A stretch of DNA of 64,000 nucleotides from an uncultured Chthonomonadaceae bacterium (GCA_963817895.1 CAWFQB010000001.1:1440001-1504000), one strand, 5' to 3'. Shown: positions 14,409 to 53,282, counted from the stretch's first letter. Notes: a model not told the origin generated them from the letters alone. A program made the numbers and translations.

Positions 14409-17154
<2,746 letters not shown>

Positions 17155-17158
<4 letters not shown>

Positions 17159-17180
17159 CATACTACCGATAATATGTCAA
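17155..17180. promoter_or_regulatory. Palindromic operator-like site overlapping a TTGACA box
   Basis: TTGACATA-N10-TATGTCAA. Confidence 0.5.
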
Positions 17181-17265
17181 GATAAATATACACGCTTGCT
17201 TCGCGATTTGATTTGTGCAGTCCTAAACGAGTTTGCGCTTGCTGATGTTCAAGGAGGACATAACT

Positions 17266-35326: not shown

Positions 35327-35336
35327 GGGTAGGTCA

Positions 35337-35747
35337 CTAGCTGTGCGTAAATAAGGCAGCAATATCTTCCCATAGTTCGGGGGCTTCCAGCGCATCGGCA
35401 AAATCACGTACCCACATTTCTACTCGCTTCACATCAAGTTTCGGGTGTGTCTCAACCAAAGACTGAATATCCAGCATATCTTTAGGGCGGTGCGCAATTG
35501 CTTTGAGGATAATCAGGTCTTCGACAGAAGGCAGGCGAATAGAAAACGCCTCTGTCTCATACAGATTCGCGCGCTCTACCGCTTCCTCCTCAAAAGGAAG
35601 CACACCAAGAGAAATATCAACGTTAATCCCACTGCGTTCATGCACCAATGGCACGACGCGAGTTTGCTGCGCGAAGGCAACAGGATCGCTTGTACGCGGT
35701 TTGATGCCCTCTACCGCAGCCTGTATATCAGCGGAGGGATTGCTCAT
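35337..35747 (-). CDS. Nucleotidyltransferase-family toxin-like protein, apparently missing its N-terminal catalytic segment
   Basis: C-terminal VDISLG, EDLIILKAIAHRPKDMLDI are typical; no GG...DxD motif precedes them. Confidence 0.65.
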   Translation of the reverse strand: MSNPSADIQAAVEGIKPRTSDPVAFAQQTRVVPLVHERSGINVDISLGVLPFEEEAVERANLYETEAFSIRLPSVEDLIILKAIAHRPKDMLDIQSLVETHPKLDVKRVEMWVRDFADALEAPELWEDIAALFTHS

Positions 35748-35961
35748 ATTTCTCTTTCAATTTACGCCACCGCGCAGCAATAATATCCGTTTCCTGAGTT
35801 TCTCGTAGAAGGTCGGGCGCAGCGACATACGAGCCGAAACGTACAAGAGACTGAAACTGCTGCCAGCGTTGCGCAACGGTTGCTTTTTGCTGTTCTTCGT
35901 GTTCCAATTCTGCGACGGCTTGCCACCGCTGCCGATATGCGACTGCGACATTCCTATCCAT
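35728..35961 (-). CDS. Small partner protein upstream of the nucleotidyltransferase (antitoxin-like)
   Basis: RWQAVAELE...RWQQ...RWRKLK; RBS GGGAGG; upstream TATAAT. Confidence 0.7.
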   Translation of the reverse strand: MDRNVAVAYRQRWQAVAELEHEEQQKATVAQRWQQFQSLVRFGSYVAAPDLLRETQETDIIAARWRKLKEKYEQSLR

Positions 35962-36010
35962 TGCTGCCTCCCCTTCCACACCAATACGCCTATTATAGCG
36001 CAAATTCCCT

Positions 36011-37767
36011 CTACCCTGATTGCCGTGCCAGCAGAAGCGCATACGTTTCTTGAAGTTCCGGCTTTGCGGCTAAAAAGGCTCCCGCATCCTCCATGCGTTC
36101 CTGATTGATGAGAAACCTCAGAAAATTGCCCAATACGGTAAGCGTACTCGGATGACGCGCTCCCAAACTGACGACAAAAATGTCCAATGCCTGCGTGTAG
36201 AGCGGTTCGGCTTCCGCGTACCGACCTTGCGACCTGTACAAAAACGCCAGATTGTTCAGACTGGTGGCAATGTAAGGATGGCTGGCTGGCAAGGTTTTCT
36301 GACGCGCTTGCAGAGACCGCGCGTACAGGAACGTTCCCTCCGCCCACAGCGCCTGCCGATGCACGAAATGGATCAGCCAGTCCGCGATGTTGCCACTAGA
36401 CTCGGCATCTCCAAGTTCCGCCGCAACATCGGCGGCGGATACGGCATGACGCCAGGACGCTTCCAACGTTGCCCGTTTCTCCCTGTCCTCTGTGTTTGCG
36501 TTGCCGCCGTTTTCCTGCGCCAACTGCCAGTAGTAAGCGATGAAATGACGTTGTTGGATTTGCTCTGCATCTATTTTATGCAGACGCTTGCGGGTGTATT
36601 CGCGGGTTGGGTGCAGCAGGGAATACAGGCTGTGTTCGTTTGATGTTGTGTACATTAGCAGGGAGGCTTCCTGTAGCGCATCAAGATATTCCCGCCTGAC
36701 ATCTGGGAAGCAAGCCGTGATTTGTTCCGGGGCGCAGTCATTGGCGAACAGAGTGCATAGCGCGAACGCGGTTTTCTCTGCTGCGTTCAGCAGGTTCCAC
36801 GATCAGTCGTAGCACTTTTCCAGCGTGTCGTGCCGCCATTCCGGGTCGTTGGCGTCCCGCTCTTCTTTTGCTTCGGTCATTTCGCCCAAGACCGCTTTGG
36901 AGATGCCCACAGCGATTTCCGGCAGGGTTCTGTTTTTGATACCCGCCGCCGCCAGTTCCAGCGCAAGCGGAATGGTTTCGGTCACGCGCAGGATGGTTGC
37001 TATCGCTACGTTTTCCGCTTCCAAAGGCGTCCATTCAAAATCGGCTTTGCGCTCACGGATGCGGGCTATCAGCAGGTCACGCCCCTCTTCGGCTTCCAAT
37101 CCCCGCACATCTTTCGACAACTCCGCGCGGTCTGCTTCCACAGACCCGCGCCCGGTGACAAGGATATGCAGCAGGGGATTTGCCGTCAGCAGTTTTTCCA
37201 CAAACCGCTTTGTTGGTCCGCACTTCACCGTCTCGTAGTTGTCCAATAGCAGCAGAATGGAAACATCTTCTTCCATTCCTGCCAGTTCCAACGCATGGCT
37301 TCGCACTGCTTATGCCCGTTTCCAGACAACACGATTTGCCCGCCATGCGCCACGCTCATAATCCGCGCCGCATAAATCACGTCCGGGTGGTTCAGGTACT
37401 CGCCCTGTTTGTTCGGCATGACCTGCATTTCCGAGGTATGGACGCCGATACGCGCTGCTAATGTCCATTCCTTGCCATTTGTATCTTTGTGCGTGATCGT
37501 GGGCAGGATGTTTTGGATAGCAATCGCGCAATCCAGCGCATCGTTGACATTGGCAAACGCCGCCATGATGCTGTCCCCGCAGGCGTACCGGAAATGCGTC
37601 CTTTGTGTTCCTCCACAAGCCTTTTGATTTCGGCAAACTGCGGCTGTAGCAGTTGCAGGCTGTAATGCTGATACGGCAGGGCGCGAGCGGCCTGAGTTCG
37701 AGCCGACAATATCCGTAAACAGGAACGTGACAATGCCTTGCGGATAAGAAACAGGATTATCAGGCAT
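36011..37767 (-). CDS. Class III cyclase - partial NTPase - TPR protein (indels; Walker A region absent)
   Basis: FLFTDIVGS, GDS, RIGVH, YAARIMSVAHGGQIVLS; then directly LLLLDNYE, IPLALELAAA, and a kinesin-light-chain-type TPR HPYIATSLNNLA. Confidence 0.75.
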
Positions 37768-37784
37768 GGGATGACTTCCTTTAA

Positions 37785-38597
37785 TCAGGGTTTTTTCTGC
37801 CCGCGAAGCAGTTCTGTGAGCGTTTTGACTTCCGCGCGAAGTTGCTTGATTTCTTCCGGCGACGATTGGACTTTCTCCAGAACAAGGTCGTTACGGTCGT
37901 TGGCATCTTCCTCGTCGCGCTGCTGTTTCGCCAAAACCAGCATCGTCATCATCAGCGCTTCAATGGTCGCGAACAATCCCAAAAAACTGAACTCGCGGCT
38001 GTCCCAGGGCGGATGATGCCATTCATTAGCGATGACCCACCATGTAAACACAATCAGATTCCCCAACAAAAACGGCAGCGCGCCAAACTGCCGCACAACC
38101 CACTCGATGCGCTTTTCTGTCTTGCTGCGTTTCACTTCCAGCGTCTTTTTCGTGCTTGGCGTAATCATGTCCGCCATCATGTCCGCGTTATCTTTCAGCC
38201 ATTGCGTTGTTTCTCGCAGCATTACAATCGCCATTTCGGGGTGCGCCCGCATAAACGCATCGAAGTTATCGCGATGAAGCGCCAGCGCAAACACCGGTCC
38301 CTTTGCCTTTGCTGTCGCCGAGCGCGGTGTTCCGTTCAAGAGGGCGATTTCACCGAAAAACTTGCCCGGCCCCAGAGTGCGCAACGGCTTTGCATTTCCG
38401 CCCGCTTCTTTCGCGAAGAACTCCACCTCGCCTCTTTCAATAAAATACATGGTGTCGCCGTCTTCACCCTGTTCGCAAATCACATTACCTGCATAGAAGT
38501 GTTTATCTTCCAACAGGGGCGCGAGTTTGATGCGCTGCTCCGGCTGTAGTCTGCTAAAAGTAGGGGCTTCTTCCAAAAGGCGCAGGTTGACCGGCAT
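37785..38597 (-). CDS. Cyclic-nucleotide-binding protein with a C-terminal two-TM DUF1003-like domain
   Basis: QGEDGDTMYFIERGEV, FFGEIALL...PRSATA; then FGALPFLLG...WD...FSFLGL...EA...Q. Confidence 0.88.
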   Translation of the reverse strand: MPVNLRLLEEAPTFSRLQPEQRIKLAPLLEDKHFYAGNVICEQGEDGDTMYFIERGEVEFFAKEAGGNAKPLRTLGPGKFFGEIALLNGTPRSATAKAKGPVFALALHRDNFDAFMRAHPEMAIVMLRETTQWLKDNADMMADMITPSTKKTLEVKRSKTEKRIEWVVRQFGALPFLLGNLIVFTWWVIANEWHHPPWDSREFSFLGLFATIEALMMTMLVLAKQQRDEEDANDRNDLVLEKVQSSPEEIKQLRAEVKTLTELLRGQKKP

Positions 38598-38822
38598 GAG
38601 GGCATCTCCTCGTCCTTGCGTCAGGCATGAAAAACAGATGTACATCTTGTGTTTACGTAACGACAAATTCAAGAAAGCGAACTAAGTTTCCTGCCCGTTC
38701 TGAAGAGGCAGCGCATAATGTAGCTATTCACCACCAGAACACAAAGGACACCAGGAAAAATGAGAGGGAAGACGTTGCAAAACAAACAGGAGTACGCAGC
38801 AACCGTGTCGAAATACAGGCGC

Positions 38823-40466
38823 ATGAAGCCAACCCCTTTTCAGAATTGGAAAACCCGTGGCGTATTGCTGTGCTGCCTGCTGTGTGGCACAACCGCCACC
38901 GGCCAGCCGCCCCGCGCCGCCCTCATTGCTGCTCGTCGAGACGACGCAAGCGCGAAACTGACGGCCGCCATTGACGCCGTGCTGGATGCGCCCGATTTGC
39001 AGACCGGCTTTGTGGGGGCGTGCGTTGTTCGCGTTCGGGACAATCAGGTTTTATATGCGCGTAATGCGGACCGCGTGTTCCTGCCCGCTTCCAACAACAA
39101 ACTGCTCACTTCGTTTGCCGCGCTGGAAACCCTGCCGCTCGATTTCGCCTATCACACGCAGGCGCGCGCCATGGGAACGGTTGGCGAGGATGGCGTTCTG
39201 CGCGGAAACCTCATGCTTGTCGGGGGCGGCGACCCGCTGCTTTCCCTTGCCGATTTAGATGATATGGCGCAGCAGATTGCCCGAATGGGCCTGCGCGAAG
39301 TGTCGGGCAAACTGATTTACGACGACACGCGCTACGATGCGCAGTGGCTTGGGGATGGCTGGACGTGGGACGATGAGGCCGCATCCTATTCCGCGCAGAT
39401 CAGCGCGCTGAATGTCAACGGCAATTGCATTGATGTACAGGTTTTACCCGGTAAGAAAATTGGGCAGCGCGTTCGCGCGCAAACAGTTCCCGCCACCGGT
39501 TACATTCGGGTGGAAAACACGGCGATTACGGGCGCAAGCGGCAGCCGTTCCACCCTTGTTGTAGACCGCAAGCGAGGCCAGAACGTGATACCCGTTACGG
39601 GCAGACTTCCACTGGCAGCCGCGTCCGCGCAGACTGCTTCCCCCTTTACGGTTGCCGTCACTGTAGAAAATCCCCCGCGTTTTACGGCTACGCTGTTCGG
39701 CGCGGCCCTGCGCAAAGCAGGCGTTCATGTTGATGACGGCGCGATTGTTTCCCTGCGCGACATTCCCCGGTCGCGCGGGAAGAGCAAGACGCAGGAAGCC
39801 GATGCAATCACAACCCCGGACATTCTCCCGGCTTCAGATACGTCGGATGGAACCGTGATTGCCGAACATACCAGCATCCGCCTGCCCGAACTGCTGACGC
39901 GCATGAACAAGCCCAGCGACAACCTCATGGCCGAATGTCTGCTCAAAGCGGTCGGGGCTTATGGCGCATTTCCCAATGACGCGACGGGTTCTGGCCGCGC
40001 GCTTAACTCAGACAGGCGGGTTGGCACGAGCGGCAATAGCGGCACGGGGGCGCAGCTTGCCCGTAAAGCGTTCGGGGCGGCAGGCATGAATCTGGAAGCC
40101 GCGCGGCAGGTGGATGGTTCCGGCCTGTCGCGCGGCAACTACGTTTCGCCGCATAATTTGGTTCGCCTGCTCCTCGCGGCCCATGCCCGCCCGTATTTCC
40201 CCATGTTTTATGCTTCCCTGCCGATTGCGGGCGTGGATGGAACCCTGCGCAACCGCATGAAAAACACGCCTGCCGCCAACAATTGCCACGCCAAGACGGG
40301 TTCGCTTTCCCACGTCAGCAGCCTGAGCGGATACGTCCGAACCAGAGACGGGGAGGAACTGGCGTTTTCCCTTCTGATGAACCATCAGTTGGGGCCATCG
40401 CGCGCCAGTACCCGCGCGCAGGACAGCATCGCGCAGTTGCTTGCCGCCTATCCGGGGATGTATTAA
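38823..40466 (+). CDS. dacB: D-alanyl-D-alanine carboxypeptidase/endopeptidase (PBP4, peptidase S13)
   Basis: PASNNKL, GGGDP, SDN, DGSGLSR, AKTGSL. Confidence 0.95.
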   Translation: MKPTPFQNWKTRGVLLCCLLCGTTATGQPPRAALIAARRDDASAKLTAAIDAVLDAPDLQTGFVGACVVRVRDNQVLYARNADRVFLPASNNKLLTSFAALETLPLDFAYHTQARAMGTVGEDGVLRGNLMLVGGGDPLLSLADLDDMAQQIARMGLREVSGKLIYDDTRYDAQWLGDGWTWDDEAASYSAQISALNVNGNCIDVQVLPGKKIGQRVRAQTVPATGYIRVENTAITGASGSRSTLVVDRKRGQNVIPVTGRLPLAAASAQTASPFTVAVTVENPPRFTATLFGAALRKAGVHVDDGAIVSLRDIPRSRGKSKTQEADAITTPDILPASDTSDGTVIAEHTSIRLPELLTRMNKPSDNLMAECLLKAVGAYGAFPNDATGSGRALNSDRRVGTSGNSGTGAQLARKAFGAAGMNLEAARQVDGSGLSRGNYVSPHNLVRLLLAAHARPYFPMFYASLPIAGVDGTLRNRMKNTPAANNCHAKTGSLSHVSSLSGYVRTRDGEELAFSLLMNHQLGPSRASTRAQDSIAQLLAAYPGMY

Positions 40467-40536
40467 ATTCCCGTTAAATTTCAATGCTATGAGCCGTTCC
40501 TCATCAATTTTCTGTCCGCTTCAGGGTTTTCCCCGC

Positions 40537-40565
40537 TTGACAGGCAGGCCGGAACATGGTTTAAT
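40537..40565 (+). promoter_or_regulatory. Sigma70-type promoter
   Basis: TTGACA-N17-TTTAAT with an extended TG. Confidence 0.65.
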
Positions 40566-40642
40566 ATGCCTGTCGGACTCGCGTTTCGCAATATTTTGAC
40601 GACGCTTCCCGACAGCGATTTCGCGCGTAATACTGCGGCAAT

Positions 40643-43200: not shown

Positions 43201-43337
43201 TGTGGCCTCATTGCAAATACAACATTGATGACGATGAGGCGTCCCGGCTCCAATAGTAATATTGTACCACGACTTTTGGGAATTCAGCCGGTGAATTTTG
43301 TCTGCTGTCTGCTAAACTTCGGAAGGGGGGTGTTCTC

Positions 43338-43760
43338 GTGATTGAAAACGCTTTGCTCAATGACGCGCGATTCGACCCGGTTCAACGCGAACTTCTGGAT
43401 ATTACCTGGCGGATGCTCGAAGCTATCGGCACGGGCGACGCTTCCACGTATGCCGCGCTTTCTTCGCCGGAATTGTCGTGTTTTGAAGATGTGTGCGCGT
43501 ACCGGATTGATGGTTTGGAGTTTCACCTGGCGCTGATCCGGCAGATGGGGCAGAACCCGGACGCGCAGCCGACTCGTTTTGATATTCTTTCGCCCCGCGT
43601 CCAGGTGTACGGCGACCATACGGGCATTGTCACGTACACGCGCCTGATGACTTATGACGAGAACGGGCGACCGAAATGGCGAACTTTCAACGAATCCCGC
43701 GTCTTTATCAAAATTGAAGGAAGTTGGAAAATGGCGCATTTCCACCGTTCGCCAACTTGA
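43338..43760 (+). CDS. NTF2-like / CaMKII association-domain (DUF4440-like) protein
   Basis: AIGTGD...LSCFE...GLEFH...PRVQVYG...ESRVF...WKMAHFHRS. Confidence 0.85.
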   Translation: MIENALLNDARFDPVQRELLDITWRMLEAIGTGDASTYAALSSPELSCFEDVCAYRIDGLEFHLALIRQMGQNPDAQPTRFDILSPRVQVYGDHTGIVTYTRLMTYDENGRPKWRTFNESRVFIKIEGSWKMAHFHRSPT

Positions 43761-43801
43761 TGCCTGTCCTGCATGGCCCTCAATGTATGGCGTTCACTTG
43801 T

Positions 43802-43840
43802 GGACATATCCCTTCTCCCAAAAAAGCCTGGGAGAAGGGG
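43802..43840 (+). repeat. REP-like repeat, degenerate copy
   Basis: GGACA...CCCTTCTCCCA-AAAAAGCC-TGGGAGAAGGG; loop nearly identical to the copy at 59634-59699. Confidence 0.65.
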
Positions 43841-44310
43841 AACTTGTTGGAAGAGGCTCAAAGCAAAAAGGTATGTAGAGACAGCGTCGAAATAGTGGCA
43901 ATGCAGCGCTTCCAGCCCGATGTCTCGATAGTGTATGTGATTTTACAGTGGAGGCGTCGTGACCTCGGTAGCATCAGGGCGAACGGGAGGGGTGGAACAT
44001 TGTGCTGCGCCTCCTTTGCGTTGCAGTAGACATTTGTACTGCGTAGACAGGTTATGTTGGAGGAAAGTTTCCTGTATTTTGCATTGTCCGATTCTTTTTT
44101 GCTGACTTTTGTGGGATGGCTGCTGTGGGCGTCGCGCAAGGAAGAGGAAAAAACATGTATTGCGCTTAAGTTGGGCAGGAGTCTGATTTCTGGTTTGAGA
44201 ATAGTAGGACAGAGTATAGCAAAGGAGAGGTGGTGAGAAAGCGCAGGGGCCAACCGCATGTTTCGAGTGAATGCCCCACTGTGCCGCGATAAGTTGTTCG
44301 CTTGATTGCC

Positions 44311-44483
44311 GCCAACCCCAAGCGCCGGCGCATGACGGTAGAGGTTCGCGCTGACCGATGAGATTGAGAGTGTTCCGCGCAAAGTTGACTTGTCTGGAGG
44401 ACGCGCCTGATTGCGTCAAATTTGCGGCTTGTTTAGCCCTGTAATGAGATTGAACGTGGTTTCAGAGTGAGTGAGCATTAGTT
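44311..44483 (+). promoter_or_regulatory. Putative CRISPR leader
   Basis: Non-coding stretch directly before the repeat, carrying GCCAACCCCAAGCG...GAGGTTCGCG, which resembles the GCGAACC...GGTTCGC motif of leaders associated with ATTGAAAC-type repeats. Confidence 0.55.
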
Positions 44484-44593
44484 GTTGCACCCGGTCGAAA
44501 GGCCGGGTGAGGATTGAAACAGTGAGTGGTACAATAGGATGGGTTACAAACACTATCTTGCACCCAGTCCTATAAATGGGTGAAGATTGAAAC
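44484..44593 (+). CRISPR. Orphan mini CRISPR array: repeat - 36-bp spacer - diverged repeat
   Basis: R1 44484-44520 GTTGCACCCGGTCGAAAGGCCGGGTGAGGATTGAAAC; spacer 44521-44556; R2 44557-44593 CTTGCACCCAGTCCTATAAATGGGTGAAGATTGAAAC (27/37 identical, same length, ATTGAAAC end). Confidence 0.85.
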
Positions 44594-44597
44594 TATC

Positions 44598-45065
44598 ATG
44601 ACTAACGTTACCAATACCATACTGCCCACCGATCAAGAGGTTCGACAGGCGCGGGAGTTTCGCGCCCTGCTTGCTCCCCTGGTTGCGCAGGAGGGAACAG
44701 CGCAGATTCATTTCCACGGCAGCAACAACCAACCGGCGGAATTAACGCTTTCCGCTGCCGTAACGCACGTTTTGCTGAATGTTCTGCAAGAAATGGGCAA
44801 GGGCAACGGTGTCAGCATTACCCCGATTAAGAAAGAGTTTACCACGCAGCAGGCCGCCGATCTTCTCATGGTTTCCCGGCCCTATCTGATTGAGGAACTG
44901 CTCGAAAAAAATGTGCTTCCCTATCACAAAGTCGGCAACCGCCGCCACATTCGCGCCGAAGACCTGTTGCGCTACAAAGAGACGGAAGAGAAAGAAATCG
45001 CCCGACGCGCAAAGGTGATGCAGGAGTTGATGGCGGAAACAGAACGGTTGGGCTTGTACAAGTGA
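44598..45065 (+). CDS. Excisionase-family (HTH_17) DNA-binding protein, antitoxin-like partner of PIN proteins
   Basis: EFTTQQAADLLMVSRPYLI...YHKVGNRRHI...DLLRYK...LGLY. Confidence 0.9.
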   Translation: MTNVTNTILPTDQEVRQAREFRALLAPLVAQEGTAQIHFHGSNNQPAELTLSAAVTHVLLNVLQEMGKGNGVSITPIKKEFTTQQAADLLMVSRPYLIEELLEKNVLPYHKVGNRRHIRAEDLLRYKETEEKEIARRAKVMQELMAETERLGLYK

Positions 45066-45409
45066 TTGCCCTCCTTGATGCCAATGTATTGTATCCTCCG
45101 GGACTGCGCGACCTGCTTATGTGGCTGGCGGTTGTTCTTGCGTATGAGCCGCGCTGGACGGAAGAGATTCACTCCGAATGGATGCGCAACGTCCTCAAAG
45201 ACCGCCCGGAGGTAACTTCCGCGCAACTGCAACGTACGCGCCGCCTGATGGATCAGGTGAACCCTTGATGTCTGGTGAGTGGCTATGAAGCGCGTGTTCC
45301 TGCCCTGACGCTGTCGGACGAAAACGACCGACATGTTTTAGCCGCCGCTATAGAAGCCGGCGCGGAGATTATCGTCACCTTCAACCTGCGCCACTTCCCC
45401 AAAGAATGA
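45062..45409 (+). pseudogene. PIN-domain (VapC-like) toxin with an in-frame TGA at 45266-45268 and a C-terminal truncation
   Basis: LLDANVLYP...LRDLL...WTEEIHSEW; after the TGA the same frame continues DENDRHVLAAAI...IVTFNLRHFPKE*. Confidence 0.85.
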
Positions 45410-45424
45410 AGCACTATATGCTTC

Positions 45425-46199
45425 TCAGATATTCTTTGTTCTCCCCCACAAGGGATTATCTTTGTGCTTCACTACGTAATCGGGGCGGGCGTAGATCGGA
45501 TTCTCACGCAATTTGCGCGTTCCTGACGCATTGGTTGACGTGGTACGGGTTCGTCTCTTCAGCAAAGCCTCTTCGACAACTATCTCAGTCGCCACGGGGG
45601 GCAGGGAACTGTCTTCTGCTGCCTGACGAACCTCCTCAATCGCTTGCCGCGCCAATGCCTCCTCCCGCGACGTAACATAATCCCCTTCCGCGCCTTTGCT
45701 GACCGACCAATCGTGAATCGTCAACTCCGCTGCAAGTATCTCCACAACTTCAAATGGAGTCGCCTGCGCATCATCGAGCGTGGTTGTATCGGCAACGAAT
45801 CGAAAAATGAGAAACCAGCCCGCTTCCCGGTTGTGCGCCTGCCATTGGCCTCGGGACCGCGACGCTTTTACCTCAATCCCAATACCGCGTGGCCGCGCAT
45901 CCTCAGCATTGTCGGCGCGTGACAGCAGATCAGGATAACCGTTGTTATACAGGTTGCGTTTTACAGCAGGGCAGGATTTTGCCACAGCGCGTCAAACTCT
46001 CCCCCACAAAATCGCTGAAAGTGGCCTCTCGCATCAGCGTTTCCAGCCTTCCGTATCCACGCCCAATGCTATGCGCGTTAATGTCCGTAAACATCGCATA
46101 AAAATCGTTTACAGCCGCTTCCACCTGTGCAACAGTAATGGAGTAAGGCAGACGGGCCTCATAGGACAGAAAAGACTTATTTAAACAGGGAGTATTCAA
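45425..46199 (-). CDS. Putative type II PD-(D/E)XK restriction endonuclease (frameshift near 45990)
   Basis: Fragments 45945-46199 and 45425-45985; GYPDL...GIEVKAS motif; divergent from a DNA methyltransferase. Confidence 0.7.
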
Positions 46200-46304
46200 G
46201 TGGCATTTTTCCTACGGGTGACTGCAAGGGTGACTGCTACTTGCTGCAAACGCGAGATTCTGCTATACTGTGCCAACTTTCGTAGAGGCAACAGGGAGCG
46301 GAAC

Positions 46305-47246
46305 GTGGCTTACCAGATTATTCATGCGGATTGTGTAGAGTGGCTGCGGCAGTGTCCGCCCTGTACTTTTCATGCCGTCATCACCGACCCACCCTTTGCG
46401 CTGAAGGAATTTGAAGACCGCGAACTCGAAAAACGCGCTGAAGGTAAGGGCGGCGTCTGGCGTATTCCCCCATCATTCGATGGATGCAAACGCGCGCCCA
46501 TGCCCCGCTTTACCATTCTCACCAGACAAGAACAGCGCGCGCTCAAAACATTCTTTCACGAGTTCGCTTCGGCGCTACTGCCGACACTGGTTCCCGGCGC
46601 GCACATCTTCATTGCCGCTTCGACACAACTATCGCATCTGGTTTTTGACGCGCTCGACAGCGCCGGGTTTGAGCGCCGGGGAGAAATTGTCCGCATGGTG
46701 CGAACCCTGCGCGGCGGCGACCGCCCCAAAAACGCTGAAGAAGAATTCCCAGGCGTGTGCGTGACGCCGCGTTCCTGTTGGGAACCCTGGGGATTGTTCC
46801 GCAAGCCCCTCGAAGGCCGCGTTCAGGATAATTTACGAACATGGAAGACGGGGGGGTTGCGCCGCTGCTCCGAGGCCACGCCGTTTCTGGATGTAATCGC
46901 CAGCGAACGGACACCGGCCCGCGAACGCGCTATTGCCGCGCACCCCTCGCTGAAACCACAATCGTTTCTACGGCAACTGGCATTGGCAGCTCTGCCTTTG
47001 GAAGAGGGTACGATATTAGACCCCTTCTGCGGTTCCGGTTCCACTCTGGCCGCCTGCGAAGCGTTAGGCTATGCCAGCGTAGGCATAGAACGCCGCGAAG
47101 ATTACGCGCAACTGGCGCGAAAGGCTGTTCCCAAACTGGCAAAATTGCCAATGCCCAACACGCCAACCCCATCGGCAAGTACGCGCAGCATAATAAAAGA
47201 CGCGCAAACAACCCTGTTCATGGAAGCCAAAGAGCAATACAAATAG
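46305..47246 (+). CDS. Site-specific N4-cytosine/N6-adenine DNA methyltransferase (beta class)
   Basis: TDPPF precedes HPSLKP and LDPFCGSGST. Confidence 0.92.
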   Translation: MAYQIIHADCVEWLRQCPPCTFHAVITDPPFALKEFEDRELEKRAEGKGGVWRIPPSFDGCKRAPMPRFTILTRQEQRALKTFFHEFASALLPTLVPGAHIFIAASTQLSHLVFDALDSAGFERRGEIVRMVRTLRGGDRPKNAEEEFPGVCVTPRSCWEPWGLFRKPLEGRVQDNLRTWKTGGLRRCSEATPFLDVIASERTPARERAIAAHPSLKPQSFLRQLALAALPLEEGTILDPFCGSGSTLAACEALGYASVGIERREDYAQLARKAVPKLAKLPMPNTPTPSASTRSIIKDAQTTLFMEAKEQYK

Positions 47247-47370
47247 CTTCCTATAGTACACGTCAGCGCAAGCAGACTAAAAAATCAAACCAACAGAAAT
47301 TAACAAATTTATCGATTAAAAATTCGCTTGTGTTGCATCCAGCAGAAATGTCGCGTAAGGAGCGAAACTA

Positions 47371-48401
47371 TCATACGGTTCTTGATGCCGAAGCCCTGTA
47401 TCGTACTTTTTCCTGGCACGCGAACCAGCAACGATCTAATTCTAACGCTGAATGTTCCACCGGCGTAGAGGTAAGGCAATCTTTGACGGATTTGGCGATA
47501 TGCCAGGCAAGCACAGGAGGAACCGCGTTGCCTACCTGTCTTTCGGTTTCCCGCAGTTTCGCGTCAAAGATGAAATCGTCTGGAAACCATTGTATCCGCG
47601 CGGCTTCCCGCATAGATATTCTGCGCGGCAGCGAATAGTGAAATTGAATGTTGCCGTGACACTCCGCGCGAATCGTGTAGCCCGGTTTGTTCGCTTTTAA
47701 GCGGCGGTTTCCCTGCTCGTGGCTTTGCTTGGCGACGCTCCAGATATGGTTGATGCTCTCATCCGCTTCCCTGTGTTCCAAATCCCCGATGGCTTCAAAA
47801 GCGTTCATCCAGGCCATTCTTGACCGTTCGGGTTTTGGCGGCGCGAATTTCCTGACCGAGCGCGAGGTCCCGACGATGAAAATACGCTCCCGGCTTTGAG
47901 GCACTCCGTAATCCGCCGCATGGTACAAATTGTAGGACAAATCGTATCCAAGCGAATTGAAGTCTTTTATAATCTGAGAGAAAGACGATTGGTTATGCCG
48001 CATCAGCAAGCCTTTTACATTTTCCGCTACAAACACTTTCGGCGTGGTTATTCTAATGGCTTCCACCATAGCCGTATACAGACTGCTGCGCTTCCCGCTG
48101 ATGCCCGCCCCTTTCCCGTTGATAGATATATCCTGACAGGGAAACCCGCCAATCAGCACATCCACATTTTGCGGCAGTTCATCTATGGAATCCCAGATGT
48201 TTCCACAGCGAATGTTCGCGTCTATGTTGCGGCGGTAGGTTCGGCAAGCCGCTTCATTGATCTCGTTTGCCCAAATTATGTTGAAAGGATGCTTCTCATA
48301 CTCTCTGCCAAAATACGAAAGCCGCCCCGGAATCCTAAATCCATTCCTCCACACCCGGAAAACAGAGAAACCACAGAATACTCTTCTGCATGTGTCGCCA
48401 T
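47371..48401 (-). CDS. C5-cytosine DNA methyltransferase (frameshift near 48315)
   Basis: Motif I SLFSGCGGMDLGF read in another frame from ATG 48401; then GGFPCQ, AENVKG, PQSRERIFIVG, QVGNAVPP. Confidence 0.9.
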
Positions 48402-48516
48402 TTCTGATACCTGCCTTTAACTTTATGTGTGAACTGTGTCTGCTTGTTTGGGTGTGATTGTAGCACAGGATAGGGAGGGCGTCAACAGGCGCATTTTCCG
48501 TTTTCGTTACTTTTCC

Positions 48517-50133
48517 CTACTCCCTATTTTGCGGCAATCTTAGTCCGCGCGGGATGAGCAGGCGATCCAGAAGCTCGAAACCGGCCTGTACCAGAAGCGC
48601 GAGAACGGCGGCAGGGATGGCTCCCTGCAAAATCAGGTTGTTGTTGTTGATGCTCAGGCCGCTCTGGATGGGTTCGCCCAATCCACCCGACCCGATGAAG
48701 GCCGCGAGGGTTGCCGTGCCGACGTTGATAATCGCGCTGGTTTTGATGCCCGCCAGAATCGAGCGCGCCGCGAGGGGCAGAAACACTTTGCGTAGTTGCG
48801 CGAACGGTTCCAGACCGAGCGCGGCGGCGGACTCGCGGATTGCGGGCGCAATGTCCTGCAAACCCGTCGCGGTGTTGCGGACGATGGGCAGCAGGCTGTA
48901 CAAAAACAGCGCGACAATGGCCGTCGTCGCGCCCTTGCCGAGTATGGGGATAGGAATCAGAAACGCGAGGAGGGCAAGCGAGGGAATCGTCTGCACAACG
49001 CCCGTAATGCCCAAAATCAGCGTACTCAGCGAACCCGGACGGCTTGCCACAATGCCGAGCGGGACGCCGACCAGAATAGCAAGAAAGAGGGAAATGCCCA
49101 CCAGTTTGAGATGTACGCCCGTCAGCCGCAGAATGTAATGCGGCACCGTTTCCGCATCCCGCCTTGCCTGCTGAACCGCGTCTTTGCTGAAGAAACCTGC
49201 CGCCACAATCGCGTAGTCGGATGTTTTCTTAATGTTCTTCGCCTGCGCGTTCAGGCGGATCATGGTTTCCTGATTGATTTTGTCTTCCAGACCGTTCAGG
49301 GCCGCAATCGCGTTTGCAGGCAGGTCCAAGCGATACACGTACAAGGCTTTGTAGCGGGGAAAAAAGTGGAGGTCGTCTTCCAGCACGAGCAGATTGTACG
49401 CGGCGATTTCGGCATCCGTCGTGTAGCACTCCATCAAATCTATCTGGTTGTCCCGTAGTTTGTCGTAACCGATGGAGTGTTCCAGCGCGCTCACTTCGGG
49501 GAAATTCATGCCGTAGCGGGCGCATAAGGCTTTGAAACCGTCCTTGCGATTTAGAAACTCCGCGCTTGGGCCAACCCGCAAATCTTCATGCGCTTTCAAG
49601 TCGCTGATTTTCGTGATACCAAGCTGCTGCGCCCGTTCTTTGCGCATGACAAGGGCGTAGTTATCATCGAATCCCAGGTCGCCCGTCATGCCGATGCCTT
49701 CGGCTTTCAGCGCGGTTCGTAATTGCTCCTCCGTCACCTGCCCTTTGAGTTTGAGGATTTCTTCGCTGATGGTCGCGCTGTATTCCGGGTACGCGCCGAT
49801 CTCGCCGCTTTTCAGTTTGCTCCACACAATGCCCGTCGAGCCAAGCCCTAACTGGTGATGCACATCCTTGAAGCCCGCGTTCTGTAGTTGCCGTTTGGCG
49901 ATTTCGGCCAGCACATACGACTCAGGAAACTTCTTCGACCCCACCGTAATTGTCTGCGCCCCGCCACGTCCTACCGGCAATAGCAGAAACATCGCAATGT
50001 ACAGGATATACAGAGATTTACCACGGATGAAACGGATAGAACGGATGAACACGGATAAGGCTGATACAATTTTGTTGCTATCCGCGTATATCCGATTCAT
50101 CCGTTTCATCCGTGGTACGCATTGGGTTGTCAC
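48517..50133 (-). CDS. Osmoprotectant (glycine betaine) ABC transporter, fused substrate-binding and permease protein
   Basis: VGSKKFPESYVLAE, AYPEYS, YTTDAEI, QTIPSLALL, LLPIVRNT, GGLG. Confidence 0.92.
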   Translation of the reverse strand: MTTQCVPRMKRMNRIYADSNKIVSALSVFIRSIRFIRGKSLYILYIAMFLLLPVGRGGAQTITVGSKKFPESYVLAEIAKRQLQNAGFKDVHHQLGLGSTGIVWSKLKSGEIGAYPEYSATISEEILKLKGQVTEEQLRTALKAEGIGMTGDLGFDDNYALVMRKERAQQLGITKISDLKAHEDLRVGPSAEFLNRKDGFKALCARYGMNFPEVSALEHSIGYDKLRDNQIDLMECYTTDAEIAAYNLLVLEDDLHFFPRYKALYVYRLDLPANAIAALNGLEDKINQETMIRLNAQAKNIKKTSDYAIVAAGFFSKDAVQQARRDAETVPHYILRLTGVHLKLVGISLFLAILVGVPLGIVASRPGSLSTLILGITGVVQTIPSLALLAFLIPIPILGKGATTAIVALFLYSLLPIVRNTATGLQDIAPAIRESAAALGLEPFAQLRKVFLPLAARSILAGIKTSAIINVGTATLAAFIGSGGLGEPIQSGLSINNNNLILQGAIPAAVLALLVQAGFELLDRLLIPRGLRLPQNRE

Positions 50134-50152
50134 CAGATATTCTCCATAGCTT

Positions 50153-50887
50153 TTATAGCTGTACCAGGCTGCGCTGGGCGGACAGGAACTCGGCAACGAA
50201 GGGCGTGGCGGGACGGTCGCGCAGGTCTTCCAGTCGGCCCTGCTGCACAATCGCGCCTTCCGAAAGCAGCACCAGATGATCGGCCAGATAGCCCGCTTCA
50301 GCCATGTCGTGCGTAACCAGCACGATGGTCTGCTCACCCGTTTGGAAAATTGTTTTCAGGTCAGTCTGTAGTCCGGCGCGGACAAGCGGATCGAGCGCGC
50401 CCATTGGCTCGTCCAGCAGCAGAACATCGGGTTTGAGCATCAGCGCGCGCATCAGGCTGACGCGCTGCCGCTGTCCGCCCGACAGTTCGGCAGGATAGCG
50501 GTTCAGGCCGTCGAGCGGGAAACGGGTCAGGTCGCACAGTTCGCGGGTACGATTCTGAATTTCAGAGGGGGATTGCTGAAGATGCGTGGCAAGCAGGGCG
50601 ACGTTTTGCCCCGCAGTCAGGTGGGGAAACAAACCGCCATCCTGAATCACATACCCAACGCGACGGCGCAGGGCGATCAAATTTTGCGGCGTGACGGGCG
50701 TGTTCTCTATAATAACCGTGCCTGCCGAGGGTTCAATCAGGCCGATAATCAGGCGCAGCAGGGTGGATTTGCCGCAGCCGCTCGGCCCGATAAGCGCGGT
50801 CACGCGCCTGCTTTCCAAACGCAGGTCGGTTGGCTGCACGGCAAAAGCCTGCCCGTATTTTTTGCTCACGCCTTTAAGTTCAATCAC
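50153..50887 (-). CDS. Osmoprotectant ABC transporter ATP-binding protein
   Basis: GPSGCGKST, GYVIQDGGLFPH, LSGGQRQRV, LLDEP. Confidence 0.95.
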   Translation of the reverse strand: MIELKGVSKKYGQAFAVQPTDLRLESRRVTALIGPSGCGKSTLLRLIIGLIEPSAGTVIIENTPVTPQNLIALRRRVGYVIQDGGLFPHLTAGQNVALLATHLQQSPSEIQNRTRELCDLTRFPLDGLNRYPAELSGGQRQRVSLMRALMLKPDVLLLDEPMGALDPLVRAGLQTDLKTIFQTGEQTIVLVTHDMAEAGYLADHLVLLSEGAIVQQGRLEDLRDRPATPFVAEFLSAQRSLVQL

Positions 50888-50937
50888 CTCACCCCAACCC
50901 CTCTCCTGGCCGCTCGTTCCTCGCTAGGAGAGGGGCT
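50887..50937 (+). repeat. REP-like repeat
   Basis: CCTCACCCC...CCCTCTCCT...AGGAGAGGGGCT; on the minus strand it provides GGGGTGAG and the GTG start of the ABC ATPase. Confidence 0.8.
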
Positions 50938-50960
50938 TTTCATGCTTTAAGGCAAATTAT

Positions 50961-53282
50961 TTACGCGCAAGGGTTGCTGTGCCGGATTGAGACACGGGCG
51001 ATTGCGCCAGCAGGCGTTTGCGATTCTTCGAGCAGAAAACGGGCGTCCATGAACGGCTCGAAGCGTATGTCCTGCCAGCGCGTCATGCCTTTGCCGTCAA
51101 TCAGGAAGGCGCCGTGCAGGGGCATGGACTCGAAATCATCGTACACCCGGAACGCTTTGAACGTTTTCGCGCTTTTGTCTGACAGTAGCGGGAACGGGTA
51201 CTGTTCGTTGAGTTTCTGGCTGGTATACGCCTGTTTCAGAAAGTCGGGCGCGTCCGTGCTGATGGCGACGAGGGAGATGCCCGCCTGCGCGAACTCTTTT
51301 TGCAGGGGCGCGAAGGCGTTGAGCTGTTCGCGGCACTTCACGCAGGCCGTGCCAAGATAGAAAATCACGACAACGGGCTTGCCCTGCCGGGTATAATCGG
51401 CGAGGGATGCTTTGCCGCCCGTCGCGTCAGGCAGGTTAAAGGCGGGGGCGGGCATGGGACTCCAGCGGAACGGGCCAAGCGTGTCCAGCGAGGGGCGCGG
51501 GCCGATGTCGGAAGGGGAGGGCGTGACGATGCGCCAGTCGGAAGCAGTAACGTTCGCGCTCTGCGCAATTCCGCTCAAACCTGCCAGCAGGGGCGTGTCC
51601 AGATCGGCGTGAACGGCGAGGCTTTGCAGGGTTTTGAACTGTTTCAGGGCGTCGTCGCGTTTGCCGTTTGCCGCCAGAACGGTTGCGAATGTGGCAAGGG
51701 GGGCGACCTGATTGGGGTTCTGCTGCGCGGCCTGCTTTGCCAGTTCTTCCGCTTTTGCCGCTTGCCCGCATTGCAGACGCAAGCGGGCCGCCCGCGCGGA
51801 TGGTAGTTGGGTAGCAAGGTCAAGCTGACGACCGGCTTCCGTTCTGTCGCCACCGCCAAGAGCCGCGTACGCCCGAACTTCGGCAAGGCGCGAGGTCAGC
51901 AATTTGGGATCGAAATTGCTGGTGTTCGCTTCCTGTTTAACGGGCTTGCCGTCCCTGTCCTTTTCAGGTTCATGCGCGGCCTGCATTGCCAGAAGCGCGT
52001 CCAGATATTTATGCCCACCCGTTAAATCGTTGGTGGCGAAACCGGCGTCGGCCAGCAACGTCAGGCGTTCCATCTGTTTGTTGGGGTTGTCCGTCGCTTC
52101 GATATAGCCCTGTTTGTCCAATTGCAGCGCGTCGTTCCACAGGTCGTAACAGAACAGGGTTTCTATCAGGCGATTCCGGCCCTGCGCCGCGCTGCCGTTT
52201 TCCAGCGTGTTGAAGCGGGGATGGCGGGGCAGTTCGATCATGTTTTTCGCCAGATCGAGCGCGTCGTGGACCCGGCCCAGATACTCCAGATTCTCCACAA
52301 GCCACTGGTTGTTGTGCGCGTAGTTGTGGATTTCGTCCGGCAAAACATGGTCGCGCATCATATAGGCGTGATCCACGCGCGCGGACGCCTCCTGCGAGTA
52401 CGCGGCATCCGCGTAACGCTTTAGTCCCGTGTACGTATGCCCCTGCATGTGCCACAGGTGCGCGATTCCCGGCCCGGACACGCCGCACTGCGCGGCGGCA
52501 TTGAGCGCGTTCTGCTCCGTCCCCTCCTGATCCCACAGATGGATGCGATAATGGTGCAGGGGGTGCTGCGGATTGGCGGCGAGAACCTGTTTCATCAGCG
52601 CGTCAATCTGTTCCCGGCTCCGTTTCGGGTCGAGATACTGATTGGTCAGATACTCGTGGGCGAGGAACGCTTTGGCTTCGATGTCGTCCGGGTAGCGGCT
52701 GACGATGTTCTGCCACGCCGCTATCAGCGCGAGTTTGCGGGTTTTATTCCAATCGCTGCCCTTGTGGGCGGCGTTGATGTAGGCGGCAAGCGAGCGTATC
52801 CACAGCAGTTCGCGTTCTCCGGCGCGGGCTTCGCGTTCGACGGATTTGGCAATGAACTGTTTGGATTTATCCGCGTTGTCAATGTATGCGAGGGCGAGTC
52901 CCCAGTAGCCCATCGGGTTGGCGGGATCGAGTTCCACCACTTTGCGGAACGAGCGGGCGGCTTCCAGATACCAGTAGCCGTGCATCTGCCCGATGCCCTG
53001 ATTGAAAAACTTTTGCGTGTCGCGAACTTTCGTGGTGATGGGGAAATCTACCCTCGGCATCCCTTTCATCAGATACGCGCGCTGTCGCGGCACATCGTTG
53101 AAGGCGTCGCCAAGCATGGAGTGTCCGAAGGCGGCTTTCCGGTCGGTGGGAGTGGTATCCTGCGTTTGGGCGGCAGGCGCAGGTTCCTGCGCGCGGGCGA
53201 GTGATACCAGCCCGACCGTCAGGTTCAGCGCGAGACCGGCAAGCAGCAGCGTTTGTGGACAACGTTGAAAGCGGGTAGGCAT
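50961..53282 (-). CDS. Secreted TPR-like protein with a C-terminal AhpC/TSA (redoxin) domain
   Basis: Signal peptide, HHYRIHLWD, AHLWHMQGH, HNYAHN; APAFNLPD...FYLGTACVKCREQ. Confidence 0.85.
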   Translation of the reverse strand: MPTRFQRCPQTLLLAGLALNLTVGLVSLARAQEPAPAAQTQDTTPTDRKAAFGHSMLGDAFNDVPRQRAYLMKGMPRVDFPITTKVRDTQKFFNQGIGQMHGYWYLEAARSFRKVVELDPANPMGYWGLALAYIDNADKSKQFIAKSVEREARAGERELLWIRSLAAYINAAHKGSDWNKTRKLALIAAWQNIVSRYPDDIEAKAFLAHEYLTNQYLDPKRSREQIDALMKQVLAANPQHPLHHYRIHLWDQEGTEQNALNAAAQCGVSGPGIAHLWHMQGHTYTGLKRYADAAYSQEASARVDHAYMMRDHVLPDEIHNYAHNNQWLVENLEYLGRVHDALDLAKNMIELPRHPRFNTLENGSAAQGRNRLIETLFCYDLWNDALQLDKQGYIEATDNPNKQMERLTLLADAGFATNDLTGGHKYLDALLAMQAAHEPEKDRDGKPVKQEANTSNFDPKLLTSRLAEVRAYAALGGGDRTEAGRQLDLATQLPSARAARLRLQCGQAAKAEELAKQAAQQNPNQVAPLATFATVLAANGKRDDALKQFKTLQSLAVHADLDTPLLAGLSGIAQSANVTASDWRIVTPSPSDIGPRPSLDTLGPFRWSPMPAPAFNLPDATGGKASLADYTRQGKPVVVIFYLGTACVKCREQLNAFAPLQKEFAQAGISLVAISTDAPDFLKQAYTSQKLNEQYPFPLLSDKSAKTFKAFRVYDDFESMPLHGAFLIDGKGMTRWQDIRFEPFMDARFLLEESQTPAGAIARVSIRHSNPCA

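What the first reader, a model, noticed from the sequence alone, without database searches (positions are those of the whole stretch)
44311..45409. Orphan mini-CRISPR built into the 5' region of an HTH/PIN toxin-antitoxin-like operon
Seen: a leader-like region, a 37-bp repeat (9-bp stem, GAAA loop, ATTGAAAC end), one 36-bp spacer and a second 37-bp repeat with 10 changes. The second repeat keeps the ATTGAAAC handle and the base of the stem, including a compensatory G-C to A-T pair (positions 10/21) and U-G to U-A (12/19). It ends 4 nt before the ATG of the HTH gene. The spacer itself contains an extended -10 box, TGgTACAAT (44527-44535). No cas gene lies in the window. Known: mini-arrays with diverged repeats act as regulatory crRNA-like RNAs (CreA/CreR in CreTA-type systems), and solitary repeat units can act as RNA anti-CRISPRs. 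Inference: the spacer either guides a trans-encoded effector to a promoter, or serves as the promoter of the TA operon so that the repeat hairpin in the 5' UTR is a Cas6/Cas5d processing site coupling TA expression to CRISPR status. The PIN toxin here has an in-frame stop and is truncated, so this copy may be decayed.
Basis: partly seen in the sequence, partly recalled or inferred. Interest (0 to 1): 0.85.

Follow-up and report, generated by a model that had tools for sequence, protein, structure and literature searches.

The report
Leftover one-spacer CRISPR array beside broken toxin-antitoxin
This is a real but stranded stump of a CRISPR array (leader, two repeats, one spacer) in a bacterium whose assembled genome has no CRISPR genes; it sits by accident of a variable gene island in front of a decayed toxin-antitoxin pair, and is one of about ten lone copies of the same repeat scattered through the genome.

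Summary
Window 44381-44593 carries a conserved CRISPR leader, a 37-nt repeat (R1), a 36-nt spacer and a degenerate second repeat (R2) that ends 4 nt before an HTH_17 gene. The PIN_3 gene that follows is broken.

The repeat belongs to a family that forms long arrays beside type I-C cas operons in related Chthonomonadaceae. This assembly (81% complete) shows no Cas1, Cas2, Cas5d, Cas6, RAMP or I-C protein.

The unit lies in a ~7-kb island absent from both congeners. None of 29 order-level and 80 GTDB-wide HTH-homologue loci carries this repeat. The spacer has no PAM-flanked target in the genome, whereas the same test detects a cas-operon solitary repeat in a cas-positive relative. The best reading is therefore an eroded orphan array; the regulatory TA coupling is not supported.

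The spacer does carry a lineage-typical extended -10, so it may incidentally drive the HTH gene.

Unexpected side result: lone sense-strand copies of this repeat sit in leaders of tuf, 16S rRNA and ribosomal-protein operons, at different sites in each congener. This is unexplained.

Earlier notes of this scan described similar stubs and leader-embedded I-C repeats on other DNA.

The parts
43759..50998 (.). Variable island, absent between the same flanking genes in congener G002. The left ~4.6 kb holds dispersed short repeats, the mini-array, the TA fragment and R-M-type genes. The right part holds an opuA-like ABC transporter.
   Evidence: Synteny: window 43328-43758 and 50999-53180 are adjacent in G002 contig C12. 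Pfam and PADLOC. Dispersed repeats.
44381..44483 (+). CRISPR leader
   Evidence: 88% identical over 130 nt (leader plus 27 nt of repeat) to a second copy at G000 C5:13095-13224. The leader-proximal ~45 nt align with leaders of the I-C array of G023 and an array of G020.
44484..44520 (+). Repeat R1, intact (type I-C-associated family)
   Evidence: Rfam CRISPR-DR9 44.8 bits. Hairpin -18.6 kcal/mol. Same family forms arrays next to cas3-cas5d-csd1-cas7-cas4-cas1-cas2 in G023.
44521..44556 (+). Single 36-nt spacer containing the extended -10 TGGTACAAT (44527-44535)
   Evidence: No match in own genome, phages, plasmids or IMG/VR. The motif TGNTAYAMT occurs in 0.13% of random 36-mers of this genome. 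The same GTGGTACAAT lies upstream of the neighbouring histidine-kinase gene.
44557..44593 (+). Repeat R2, degenerate (27/37 identical to R1). Both ends are kept and the loop region is replaced.
   Evidence: CM score 41.4 bits. Fold.
44598..45065 (+). HTH_17 antitoxin-like gene, intact, 155 aa
   Evidence: Pfam PF12728, E 3.9e-9. 74% identical to the G002 orthologue.
45062..45409 (+). PIN_3 toxin pseudogene: in-frame TGA at 45266-45268 and loss of the C-terminal ~70 residues
   Evidence: Intact 177-aa ORF (as listed) in G002. DNA homology to the G002 TA ends at 45400.
45425..45985 (-). 186-aa ORF with no family match (possible restriction-enzyme partner of the methylases; inference only)
   Evidence: no Pfam or PADLOC hit.
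46200..47246 (+). N6/N4 type II DNA methyltransferase gene
   Evidence: Pfam PF01555. PADLOC MTase_II, E 7e-106.
47332..47368 (+). Third, decayed copy of the repeat (R3), 85 nt after the methylase stop and 2 nt from the stop of the convergent C5 methylase gene
   Evidence: 10 mismatches to R1. CM 44.1 bits. It no longer folds as the hairpin.
47371..48354 (-). C5 cytosine DNA methyltransferase gene
   Evidence: Pfam PF00145, E 6e-65. PADLOC.

Best explanation
The element is the eroded stump of a type I-C-family CRISPR array. It has a genuine leader, the leader-proximal repeat, one spacer and a degenerate last repeat. It is stranded in a genome whose assembly has no cas genes. It lies in a strain-specific ~7-kb island together with a 5'- and 3'-truncated HTH_17/PIN_3 toxin-antitoxin fragment and restriction-modification-type genes.

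Its position in front of the TA genes is a recombination junction within a defence island. It is not a designed regulatory architecture, and without Cas proteins it cannot act as a guide.

The one functional consequence that is plausible, though inferred and not shown, is that the extended -10 inside the spacer now transcribes the intact HTH gene. R2 would then form the 5' UTR.
For: 1. True CRISPR identity. R1 hits Rfam CRISPR-DR9. The same repeat family forms long arrays in 6 family- or order-level relatives (G019, G020, G023, G024, G026, G030). In G023 the array is directly preceded by a complete I-C operon. The leader is homologous to the leaders of such arrays.
2. No Cas. There were 0 matches in G000 for Cas6_C, Cas1, RAMPs, Cas2 and Cas5d. 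The six I-C proteins of G023 gave no tblastn hit better than E 0.028.
3. Erosion is general in this genome. There is a second leader with one truncated repeat on C5, a partial repeat plus spacer plus repeat at C1:1402620, a decayed R3 in the same island, and a remnant of another repeat type at C3:180100-180271 where congener G002 has RT, a Cas1 with a stop, and a 27-repeat array.
4. Linkage to the TA is not conserved. The repeat occurs in 0 of 29 HTH-homologue loci in the order and 0 of 80 across GTDB species. An array of any type occurs in 1 of these 109 loci.
5. The TA is a fragment. Homology to the G002 operon spans only 44610-45400. The orthologue has its own GGTATAGT promoter and AGGAG Shine-Dalgarno.
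6. The island is absent from G002 and G001 at this site.
7. No regulatory target. There is no seed of 11 nt or more and no TTC-flanked match of at least 13/15 for the spacer or for the sequences after R2 and R3.
Against: - The assembly is only 80.96% complete by marker genes, so a cas locus could be missing.
- An 8-repeat array of another type on C2 has perfectly identical repeats, which suggests recent activity somewhere.
- The spacer carries an extended -10 that only 0.13% of random 36-mers of this genome contain.
- R2 keeps both ends and the base of the stem, including one compensatory pair. The typical decayed terminal repeat, as I recall it, degenerates at its 3' end instead.
- R2 stops exactly 4 nt before an intact ORF.
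- Other lone copies of the repeat lie on the sense strand just upstream of gene starts (tuf, fabF, others). This hints that such positions may be selected and not accidental.
Confidence: 0.6

Rival explanations
1. R2 belongs to a wider set of lone, sense-strand type I-C repeats in this genus. These may have been recruited as 5'-UTR or intergenic RNA modules: a stable GNRA-capped hairpin followed by the purine-rich AGGA(U)UGAAAC tail just upstream of a Shine-Dalgarno or start codon. Such a module could stabilise or insulate the mRNA on its own. Where a Cas5c is present, it could serve as a processing site that couples expression to CRISPR status.
For: - Lone copies lie 0-23 nt before identified starts: HTH (4 nt), tuf (18 nt, abutting its SD), G002 fabF (0 nt, where GAGGA of the repeat sits 7 nt before the ATG), a G001 gene (13 nt) and a G021 prepilin-type gene (23 nt).
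- Others lie in the leaders of 16S rRNA (G000, G002), infA-rpmJ (G000), rpsK-rpsD (G001), rpsN-rpsH (G002) and ahcY (G001).
- In all 13 cases where I could name the downstream gene, the repeat is on the sense strand.
- Sites differ between congeners. The tuf copy is present in 1 of 7 genomes aligned, so copies were gained or lost recently.
- Stems stay paired across copies: 93% of cells paired, 5 of 9 pairs with double changes, 0 of 500 shuffles as high.
Against: - No Cas5d was found in G000, G001 or G002.
- The 16S-leader copy is no better conserved between G000 and G002 (4 changes in 37 nt) than its flanks.
- R3 and the C5 copy are visibly decaying.
- Stem covariation may only reflect origin from different intact arrays.
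- Intergenic survival bias explains proximity to promoters and starts.
- Gene identities and orientations were read by eye. An automatic ORF table was too noisy to use.
- There are no expression data.
Confidence: 0.2
2. The unit is a crRNA-like regulatory gene (CreA or crlRNA type). Its spacer would guide a type I-C Cascade, encoded on unassembled DNA or recently lost, to repress a promoter of the TA or another defence gene.
For: - The architecture of two repeat-like sequences around one spacer matches crlRNA genes. Type I-C solitary repeats regulating neighbouring defence genes are described (bioRxiv 10.1101/2024.12.27.630466, abstract and sections 4 and 23 read; 10.1101/2023.03.03.530964, passages read).
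- A relative has such a unit. The G023 solo between cas3 and cas5d is followed by a sequence matching a TTC-flanked site 21 nt upstream in 14 of 15 scored positions.
- The assembly is incomplete.
Against: - The same target test is negative here, both genome-wide and within the island.
- There are no cas genes.
- R1 has a full array-type leader. It does not sit inside a cas operon.
- Linkage to the TA is not conserved.
- The toxin is already dead.
Confidence: 0.07
3. The three repeat copies in the island (R1, R2, R3) are cargo of a mobile island. They would act as RNA decoys (Racr-like solitary repeat units) or as a mini-array used in conflicts between mobile elements against type I-C systems of recipient cells.
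For: - The island is strain-specific and carries R-M and TA genes typical of mobile defence islands.
- Solitary repeats as RNA anti-CRISPRs are known (PMC10651486, search listing and abstract seen).
- Type I-C systems with this repeat family exist in the family.
- Two further copies flank a 4-kb block with SLATT, RelA/SpoT-like and integrase-fragment genes.
Against: - No integrase, transposase or phage gene lies in 43759-48400.
- The leader is host-array-like and duplicated elsewhere in the chromosome.
- R3 no longer forms the hairpin.
- Copies also lie in core housekeeping leaders that are not mobile.
Confidence: 0.08

Closest known systems
Orphan or vestigial CRISPR arrays (arrays without cas genes, with a degenerate last repeat)
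   Same: A leader, a bona fide repeat family, CRISPR spacing (73 nt start to start; 71-83 nt in the G023 array), a unique spacer without a known target, a degenerate last repeat, and no cas genes in the assembly.
   Different: Only one spacer. The last repeat is degenerate in its middle and not at its 3' end. The spacer looks like a promoter. The array abuts an intact ORF start.
Type I-C solitary repeat units giving crRNA-like regulators of cas-linked defence genes (Shu et al., bioRxiv 10.1101/2024.12.27.630466), mini-arrays of Shmakov et al. (bioRxiv 10.1101/2023.03.03.530964) and CreTA
   Same: Two repeat-like sequences around a short spacer, an I-C-type hairpin with a conserved 3' tail, and a location next to defence-type genes (TA, R-M).
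   Different: No cas operon, no PAM-flanked partial target, an array-type leader, and no conserved linkage. A true example of that kind is seen in relative G023 between cas3 and cas5d, but not here.
Viral or plasmid solitary repeat units acting as RNA anti-CRISPRs (Racr; Camara-Wilpert et al. 2023, PMC10651486)
   Same: Lone copies of a CRISPR repeat outside arrays, transcribed in the sense direction. Earlier notes of this scan saw I-C repeat mimics 15-17 nt ahead of phage gene starts.
   Different: Here the copies are chromosomal, partly in core housekeeping leaders, in genomes without the targeted system.
Dispersed leader-plus-repeat stubs, as in Methanocaldococcus jannaschii (recalled, not checked in a paper) and earlier notes of this scan
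   Same: Truncated leader plus one or two repeats scattered around a chromosome (window copy, C5 copy).
   Different: In this genus many copies lack any leader and sit inside transcription units.

Membership tests
CRISPR array, type I-C-associated repeat family | The repeat belongs to a recognised CRISPR repeat family that forms arrays | tested here: met
   Rfam RF01322, 44.8 bits (gathering score 45). The CM of the copies finds long arrays in G019, G020, G023, G024, G026 and G030.
CRISPR array, type I-C-associated repeat family | A leader upstream of the first repeat, homologous to leaders of working arrays | tested here: met
CRISPR array, type I-C-associated repeat family | Regular repeat-spacer periodicity with unique spacers | tested here: met
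   73-nt period and one 36-nt spacer. With only two repeats, this is the minimum possible.
CRISPR array, type I-C-associated repeat family | Cognate cas genes (cas5d/cas8c/cas7/cas3, cas1-cas2) in the genome | tested here: not met
   0 matches. Caveat: the assembly is 80.96% complete.
crRNA-like regulatory mini-array (CreA / crlRNA / SRU) | Spacer partially complementary to a promoter next to a PAM | tested here: not met
   The positive control in G023 gave 14/15 with TTC.
crRNA-like regulatory mini-array (CreA / crlRNA / SRU) | Located within or beside a cas locus whose effector it uses | tested here: not met
   No cas gene in the window or the assembly.
crRNA-like regulatory mini-array (CreA / crlRNA / SRU) | Conserved linkage with the regulated gene in related genomes | tested here: not met
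   0 of 29 and 0 of 80. The island is absent in G001 and G002.
RNA anti-CRISPR (Racr) / solitary repeat unit of a mobile element | Carried by a virus, plasmid or other mobile element | tested here: inconclusive
   The island is strain-specific, but no mobility gene lies in 43759-48400.
RNA anti-CRISPR (Racr) / solitary repeat unit of a mobile element | The RNA binds Cas proteins and inhibits interference | not testable with these tools
   Needs experiments.
Type II toxin-antitoxin pair, HTH_17 antitoxin with PIN_3 toxin | Intact antitoxin and intact toxin in one operon | tested here: not met
   The HTH is intact. The PIN has an in-frame TGA and lacks its C-terminal third compared with the G002 orthologue.

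The most novel reading that the evidence does not exclude
In Chthonomonadaceae, single type I-C CRISPR repeats have spread as sense-strand RNA modules into the leaders of highly expressed host operons. The sites include tuf, 16S rRNA, the rpsN-rpsH, infA-rpmJ and rpsK-rpsD ribosomal-protein operons, fabF and ahcY, and here the HTH antitoxin gene. They lie at different sites in each species. The modules would either tie host gene expression to Cas5c processing or act without Cas as 5' hairpin plus Shine-Dalgarno cassettes. The window's R2 would be one such module and not a dead terminal repeat.
Probability: 0.15. Interest if true: 0.75.

Novelty: new member of a known kind. Interest (0 to 1): 0.4.

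Why it matters
As a relic, the locus is an ordinary example of how CRISPR loci decay into leader-repeat stumps inside defence islands. It is also a caution against reading adjacency to a TA pair as regulation.

The side observation matters more. Lone copies of the same repeat lie on the sense strand in leaders of core translation genes, and they are polymorphic between congeners. If this reflects function or an active spreading mechanism, it would show CRISPR repeats being reused as host RNA elements outside immunity. It would also pose the question of how a 37-nt repeat moves to new sites.

Tried and rejected
- **Spacer targets.** Phages gave only three 17-nt chance matches at E 5. Plasmids gave none. 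IMG/VR gave none for the exact 26-nt core. The own genome gave none.
- **Sequencing runs.** None was listed for window 44200-45600 and no RNA holder was listed, so there was no test of a TSS near 44542, of repeat cleavage, or of the TGA.
- **Sigma-70 consensus scan** of 44200-45500: 0 full promoters. The scan requires both hexamers, so it cannot see an extended -10 alone.
- **REP/RAYT idea** for spreading of the lone repeats. Y1 transposase genes exist in all 5 genomes tested, but none lies beside a repeat copy. No shared target motif or target duplication was seen at the copies' flanks.
- **Direct-repeat scan** upstream of 80 HTH loci. It was too insensitive: the window itself scored 19/28 against a background of 14-18. 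Its one outlier (L179) is a 9-nt tandem repeat.
- **Automatic ORF table** for orientation of the lone copies. It was too noisy in this GC-rich genome and was not used for counts.
- **The search for related loci** with the single HTH protein found nothing. The alignment query worked.
- **Earlier-findings look-ups** by place and by sequence gave nothing relevant.
- **R2/R3 flank coincidence.** R2 and R3 are both followed by TATCAT. I considered an integration scar, but six bases are too few to build on.

Full report
**What is there**

- A 37-nt repeat R1 lies at 44484-44520.
- A 36-nt spacer lies at 44521-44556.
- A second repeat R2 lies at 44557-44593 and differs from R1 at 10 positions.
- R2 ends 4 nt before the ATG (44598) of a 155-aa HTH_17 protein.

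The next gene overlaps the HTH stop. It is a PIN_3 toxin with an in-frame TGA at 45266-45268. Compared with an intact orthologue in a congener (177-aa ORF as listed), it also lacks about 70 C-terminal residues.

R1 folds into the 9-bp, GAAA-capped hairpin (-18.6 kcal/mol, z -4.6). R2 keeps only the six basal pairs, including the compensatory G-C to A-T pair. R1 scores 44.8 bits against Rfam CRISPR-DR9, 0.2 bits under the curated threshold.

**It is a real CRISPR unit of a type I-C repeat family**

I built a covariance model from the genome's copies. It finds the same repeat family in 14 of 41 genomes of the order, counting this one. Ordinary long arrays occur in G019, G020, G023, G024, G026 and G030.

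In G023 the array is directly preceded by cas3, cas5d, csd1, cas7, cas4, cas1 and cas2, which is a type I-C system.

The 103 nt upstream of R1 (44381-44483) are a true leader. They recur at 88% identity, together with one truncated repeat, on contig C5. The leader-proximal part aligns with the leaders of the G023 and G020 arrays.

Titles of related contigs place the organism in the Chthonomonadaceae (Armatimonadota).

**No Cas proteins in this assembly**

- Whole-genome six-frame searches found no Cas6_C, Cas1, RAMP, Cas2 or Cas5d.
- The six I-C proteins of G023 gave no tblastn hit better than E 0.028.
- The assembly is 7.48 Mb in 14 contigs but only 80.96% complete by marker genes, so absence is not proven.
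- Congener G001 (97% complete) also lacks Cas1 and Cas5d.
- Congener G002 has three Cas1 loci, one with a stop codon, and no Cas5d.

**The setting is a strain-specific island, and the TA is a fragment**

In G002 the SnoaL-like gene (window 43328-43758) is followed directly by the gene that starts at window 50999. Window ~43759-50998 is therefore an insertion, and G001 lacks it too.

The island contains:
- short dispersed repeats;
- the mini-array;
- the TA fragment;
- an unassigned 186-aa ORF;
- two type II DNA methylase genes with a third, decayed repeat copy R3 between them (47332-47368);
- an opuA-like transporter.

DNA homology to the closest TA operon (G002, 74% protein identity) covers only 44610-45400. 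That orthologue has its own GGTATAGT -10 and an AGGAG Shine-Dalgarno and no repeat. The array and the TA are thus joined at a junction just upstream of the ATG, and the TA is cut again at its 3' end.

**Linkage is not conserved**

HTH homologues occur in 36 of 68 genomes of the order.
- None of the 29 foreign loci fetched carries the repeat within 1.5 kb.
- None of 80 loci from GTDB-wide species carries it within 2.5 kb.
- A scan for arrays of any kind in these 109 loci found one, a 19-repeat array with a 61-nt period in L171.
- In G002 another HTH_17/PIN_3 pair lies convergent to the far end of an RT-Cas1-linked array of a different repeat type.

TA pairs and arrays do meet in defence islands, but not in this architecture.

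**The guide-RNA idea fails a test that works on a relative**

Type I-C solitary repeats that make crRNA-like regulators have these properties (bioRxiv 10.1101/2024.12.27.630466, abstract and sections 4 and 23 read):
- an 11-nt 5' handle;
- a TTC PAM;
- about 16 bp of partial complementarity to a nearby promoter, tolerating a mismatch at position 6.

Related mini-arrays are surveyed in 10.1101/2023.03.03.530964 (passages read).

In G023 a lone repeat sits between cas3 and cas5d. The sequence after it matches a TTC-flanked site 21 nt upstream in 14 of 15 scored positions.

Here the same scan was negative for the R1 spacer, for the sequences after R2 and R3, and for the seven other copies. It found no TTC-flanked match of at least 13/15 for eight of the ten sequences. 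The other two had 1-2 hits at exactly 13/15, against 0-1 in shuffles. There was no seed of 11 nt or more. Within the island nothing scored above 11/15, and that without a PAM.

No protospacer was found in phages, plasmids or IMG/VR.

**What may still be functional**

The spacer's GTGGTACAAT is the same extended -10 seen upstream of the neighbouring histidine-kinase gene. It resembles TGGTATACT/TGGTATAAT boxes upstream of rpsN, rpmJ, ahcY and 16S in this genus. Only 0.13% of random 36-mers of the genome contain TGNTAYAMT.

It is therefore reasonable, but only inferred, that transcription of the intact HTH gene now starts near 44542 with R2 as its 5' UTR. No sequencing run was listed to test this.

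**A wider and unexplained pattern**

The genome holds ten strong copies of this repeat. The window copy (R1, R2) is an array stump with its leader, and the C5 copy is a leader followed by one truncated repeat. Some of the others look like array debris:
- a partial repeat plus spacer plus repeat at C1:1402620;
- a copy 4 kb away, across a block with SLATT, RelA/SpoT-like and integrase-fragment genes.

Others are lone, on the sense strand, inside core transcription units:
- 18 nt before the EF-Tu start, abutting its Shine-Dalgarno;
- about 100 nt before one of the two 16S genes;
- between infA and rpmJ, just upstream of the rpmJ promoter.

Congeners have copies at other sites:
- G001: between rpsK and rpsD, and in the ahcY 5' UTR;
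- G002: in the rpsN-rpsH leader, in the orthologous 16S leader, and abutting the fabF ATG;
- G021: in front of three prepilin-type genes.

The tuf copy is present in only 1 of 7 genomes aligned, and G001 lacks the rpsN-leader copy. Hairpin variants are more alike within a genome than between genomes: GAAA loops in G000, GCAA in G001, GTAGC 5' ends in G021. This points to lineage-specific spread.

Stems remain paired across copies (93% of cells, 5 of 9 pairs with double changes). That may only reflect descent from different intact arrays.

I found no target motif, no duplication and no linked transposase. The one orthologous pair (16S leader, G000 and G002) is no better conserved than its flanks.

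Earlier notes of this scan describe scattered leader-plus-repeat stubs and type I-C repeat mimics just ahead of gene starts in phages. The resemblance is a lead, not evidence.

**Verdict**

The thing is an eroded, orphan, one-spacer type I-C-family array joined by island rearrangement to a dead TA fragment (confidence 0.6). A designed CRISPR-TA coupling is not supported.

The sense-strand lone repeats in housekeeping leaders keep a more interesting reading alive (about 0.15-0.2). They deserve a proper census and RNA-end mapping.

Noticed in passing
G000 C10:83572-83608 (-), C4:153128-153164 (+), C3:187668-187704 (+); G001 C2:2519062, 4277795, 4806077; G002 C49:678648, C5:635, C44:158476: Lone sense-strand copies of the type I-C-family repeat sit in leaders or intergenic spacers of tuf, 16S rRNA, infA-rpmJ, rpsK-rpsD, ahcY, rpsN-rpsH and fabF. 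The sites differ in each of three congeners. The mechanism of spread and any function are unknown.
   Followed up: partly
G023 C4:90972-91008 (locus L046): A lone repeat lies between cas3 and cas5d of a complete type I-C operon. The sequence after it matches a TTC-flanked site 21 nt upstream in 14 of 15 scored positions. It is a likely self-regulating crRNA-like unit of the kind described for I-C systems.
   Followed up: partly
G000 C2:324350-324900: An eight-repeat CRISPR array of a different 37-nt repeat type has seven identical repeats and a degenerate last one. No cas gene was identified among the 20 ORFs scanned in the ~10 kb on either side.
   Followed up: partly
G000 C3:180100-180271, and G002 C49 (locus L113 ~11430-17204): Between fusA and the rpsN-rpsH operon, G000 keeps fragments of a third repeat type beside a DUF4351/YhgA-like gene. 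At the same place G002 has a reverse transcriptase, a Cas1 with a stop codon, a 27-repeat array and a convergent PIN_3/HTH_17 pair. This site upstream of ribosomal-protein genes serves as a CRISPR locus in the genus.
   Followed up: partly
G000 C1:1402620-1406672 (locus L005): Two copies of the repeat, both on the + strand, bracket a 4-kb block with an unknown ORF, a RelA/SpoT-like gene, an NA37-like gene, a SLATT-domain gene and an integrase fragment. The block may have inserted into a former array.
   Followed up: no
window 43770-44090: Two kinds of short dispersed repeat lie at the left edge of the island: a ~32-nt hairpin-like element (43810-43841) and a ~125-nt element (43860-43988). Each has dozens of copies in G000 and in G002.
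   Followed up: no
G000 C10:83763-83831 (upstream of the tRNA before tuf): A ~65-nt palindromic dispersed repeat matches many sites in G000 in both orientations.
   Followed up: no
window 44594-44599 and 47369-47374: R2 and R3 are both followed by TATCAT. After R2 it contains the HTH start codon. After R3 it contains the stop codon of the convergent C5 methylase gene. This may be chance.
   Followed up: no
window 35329-40625: A second stretch is absent from the syntenic region of G002 and includes tandemly repeated ~100-nt units that match several G002 sites.
   Followed up: no
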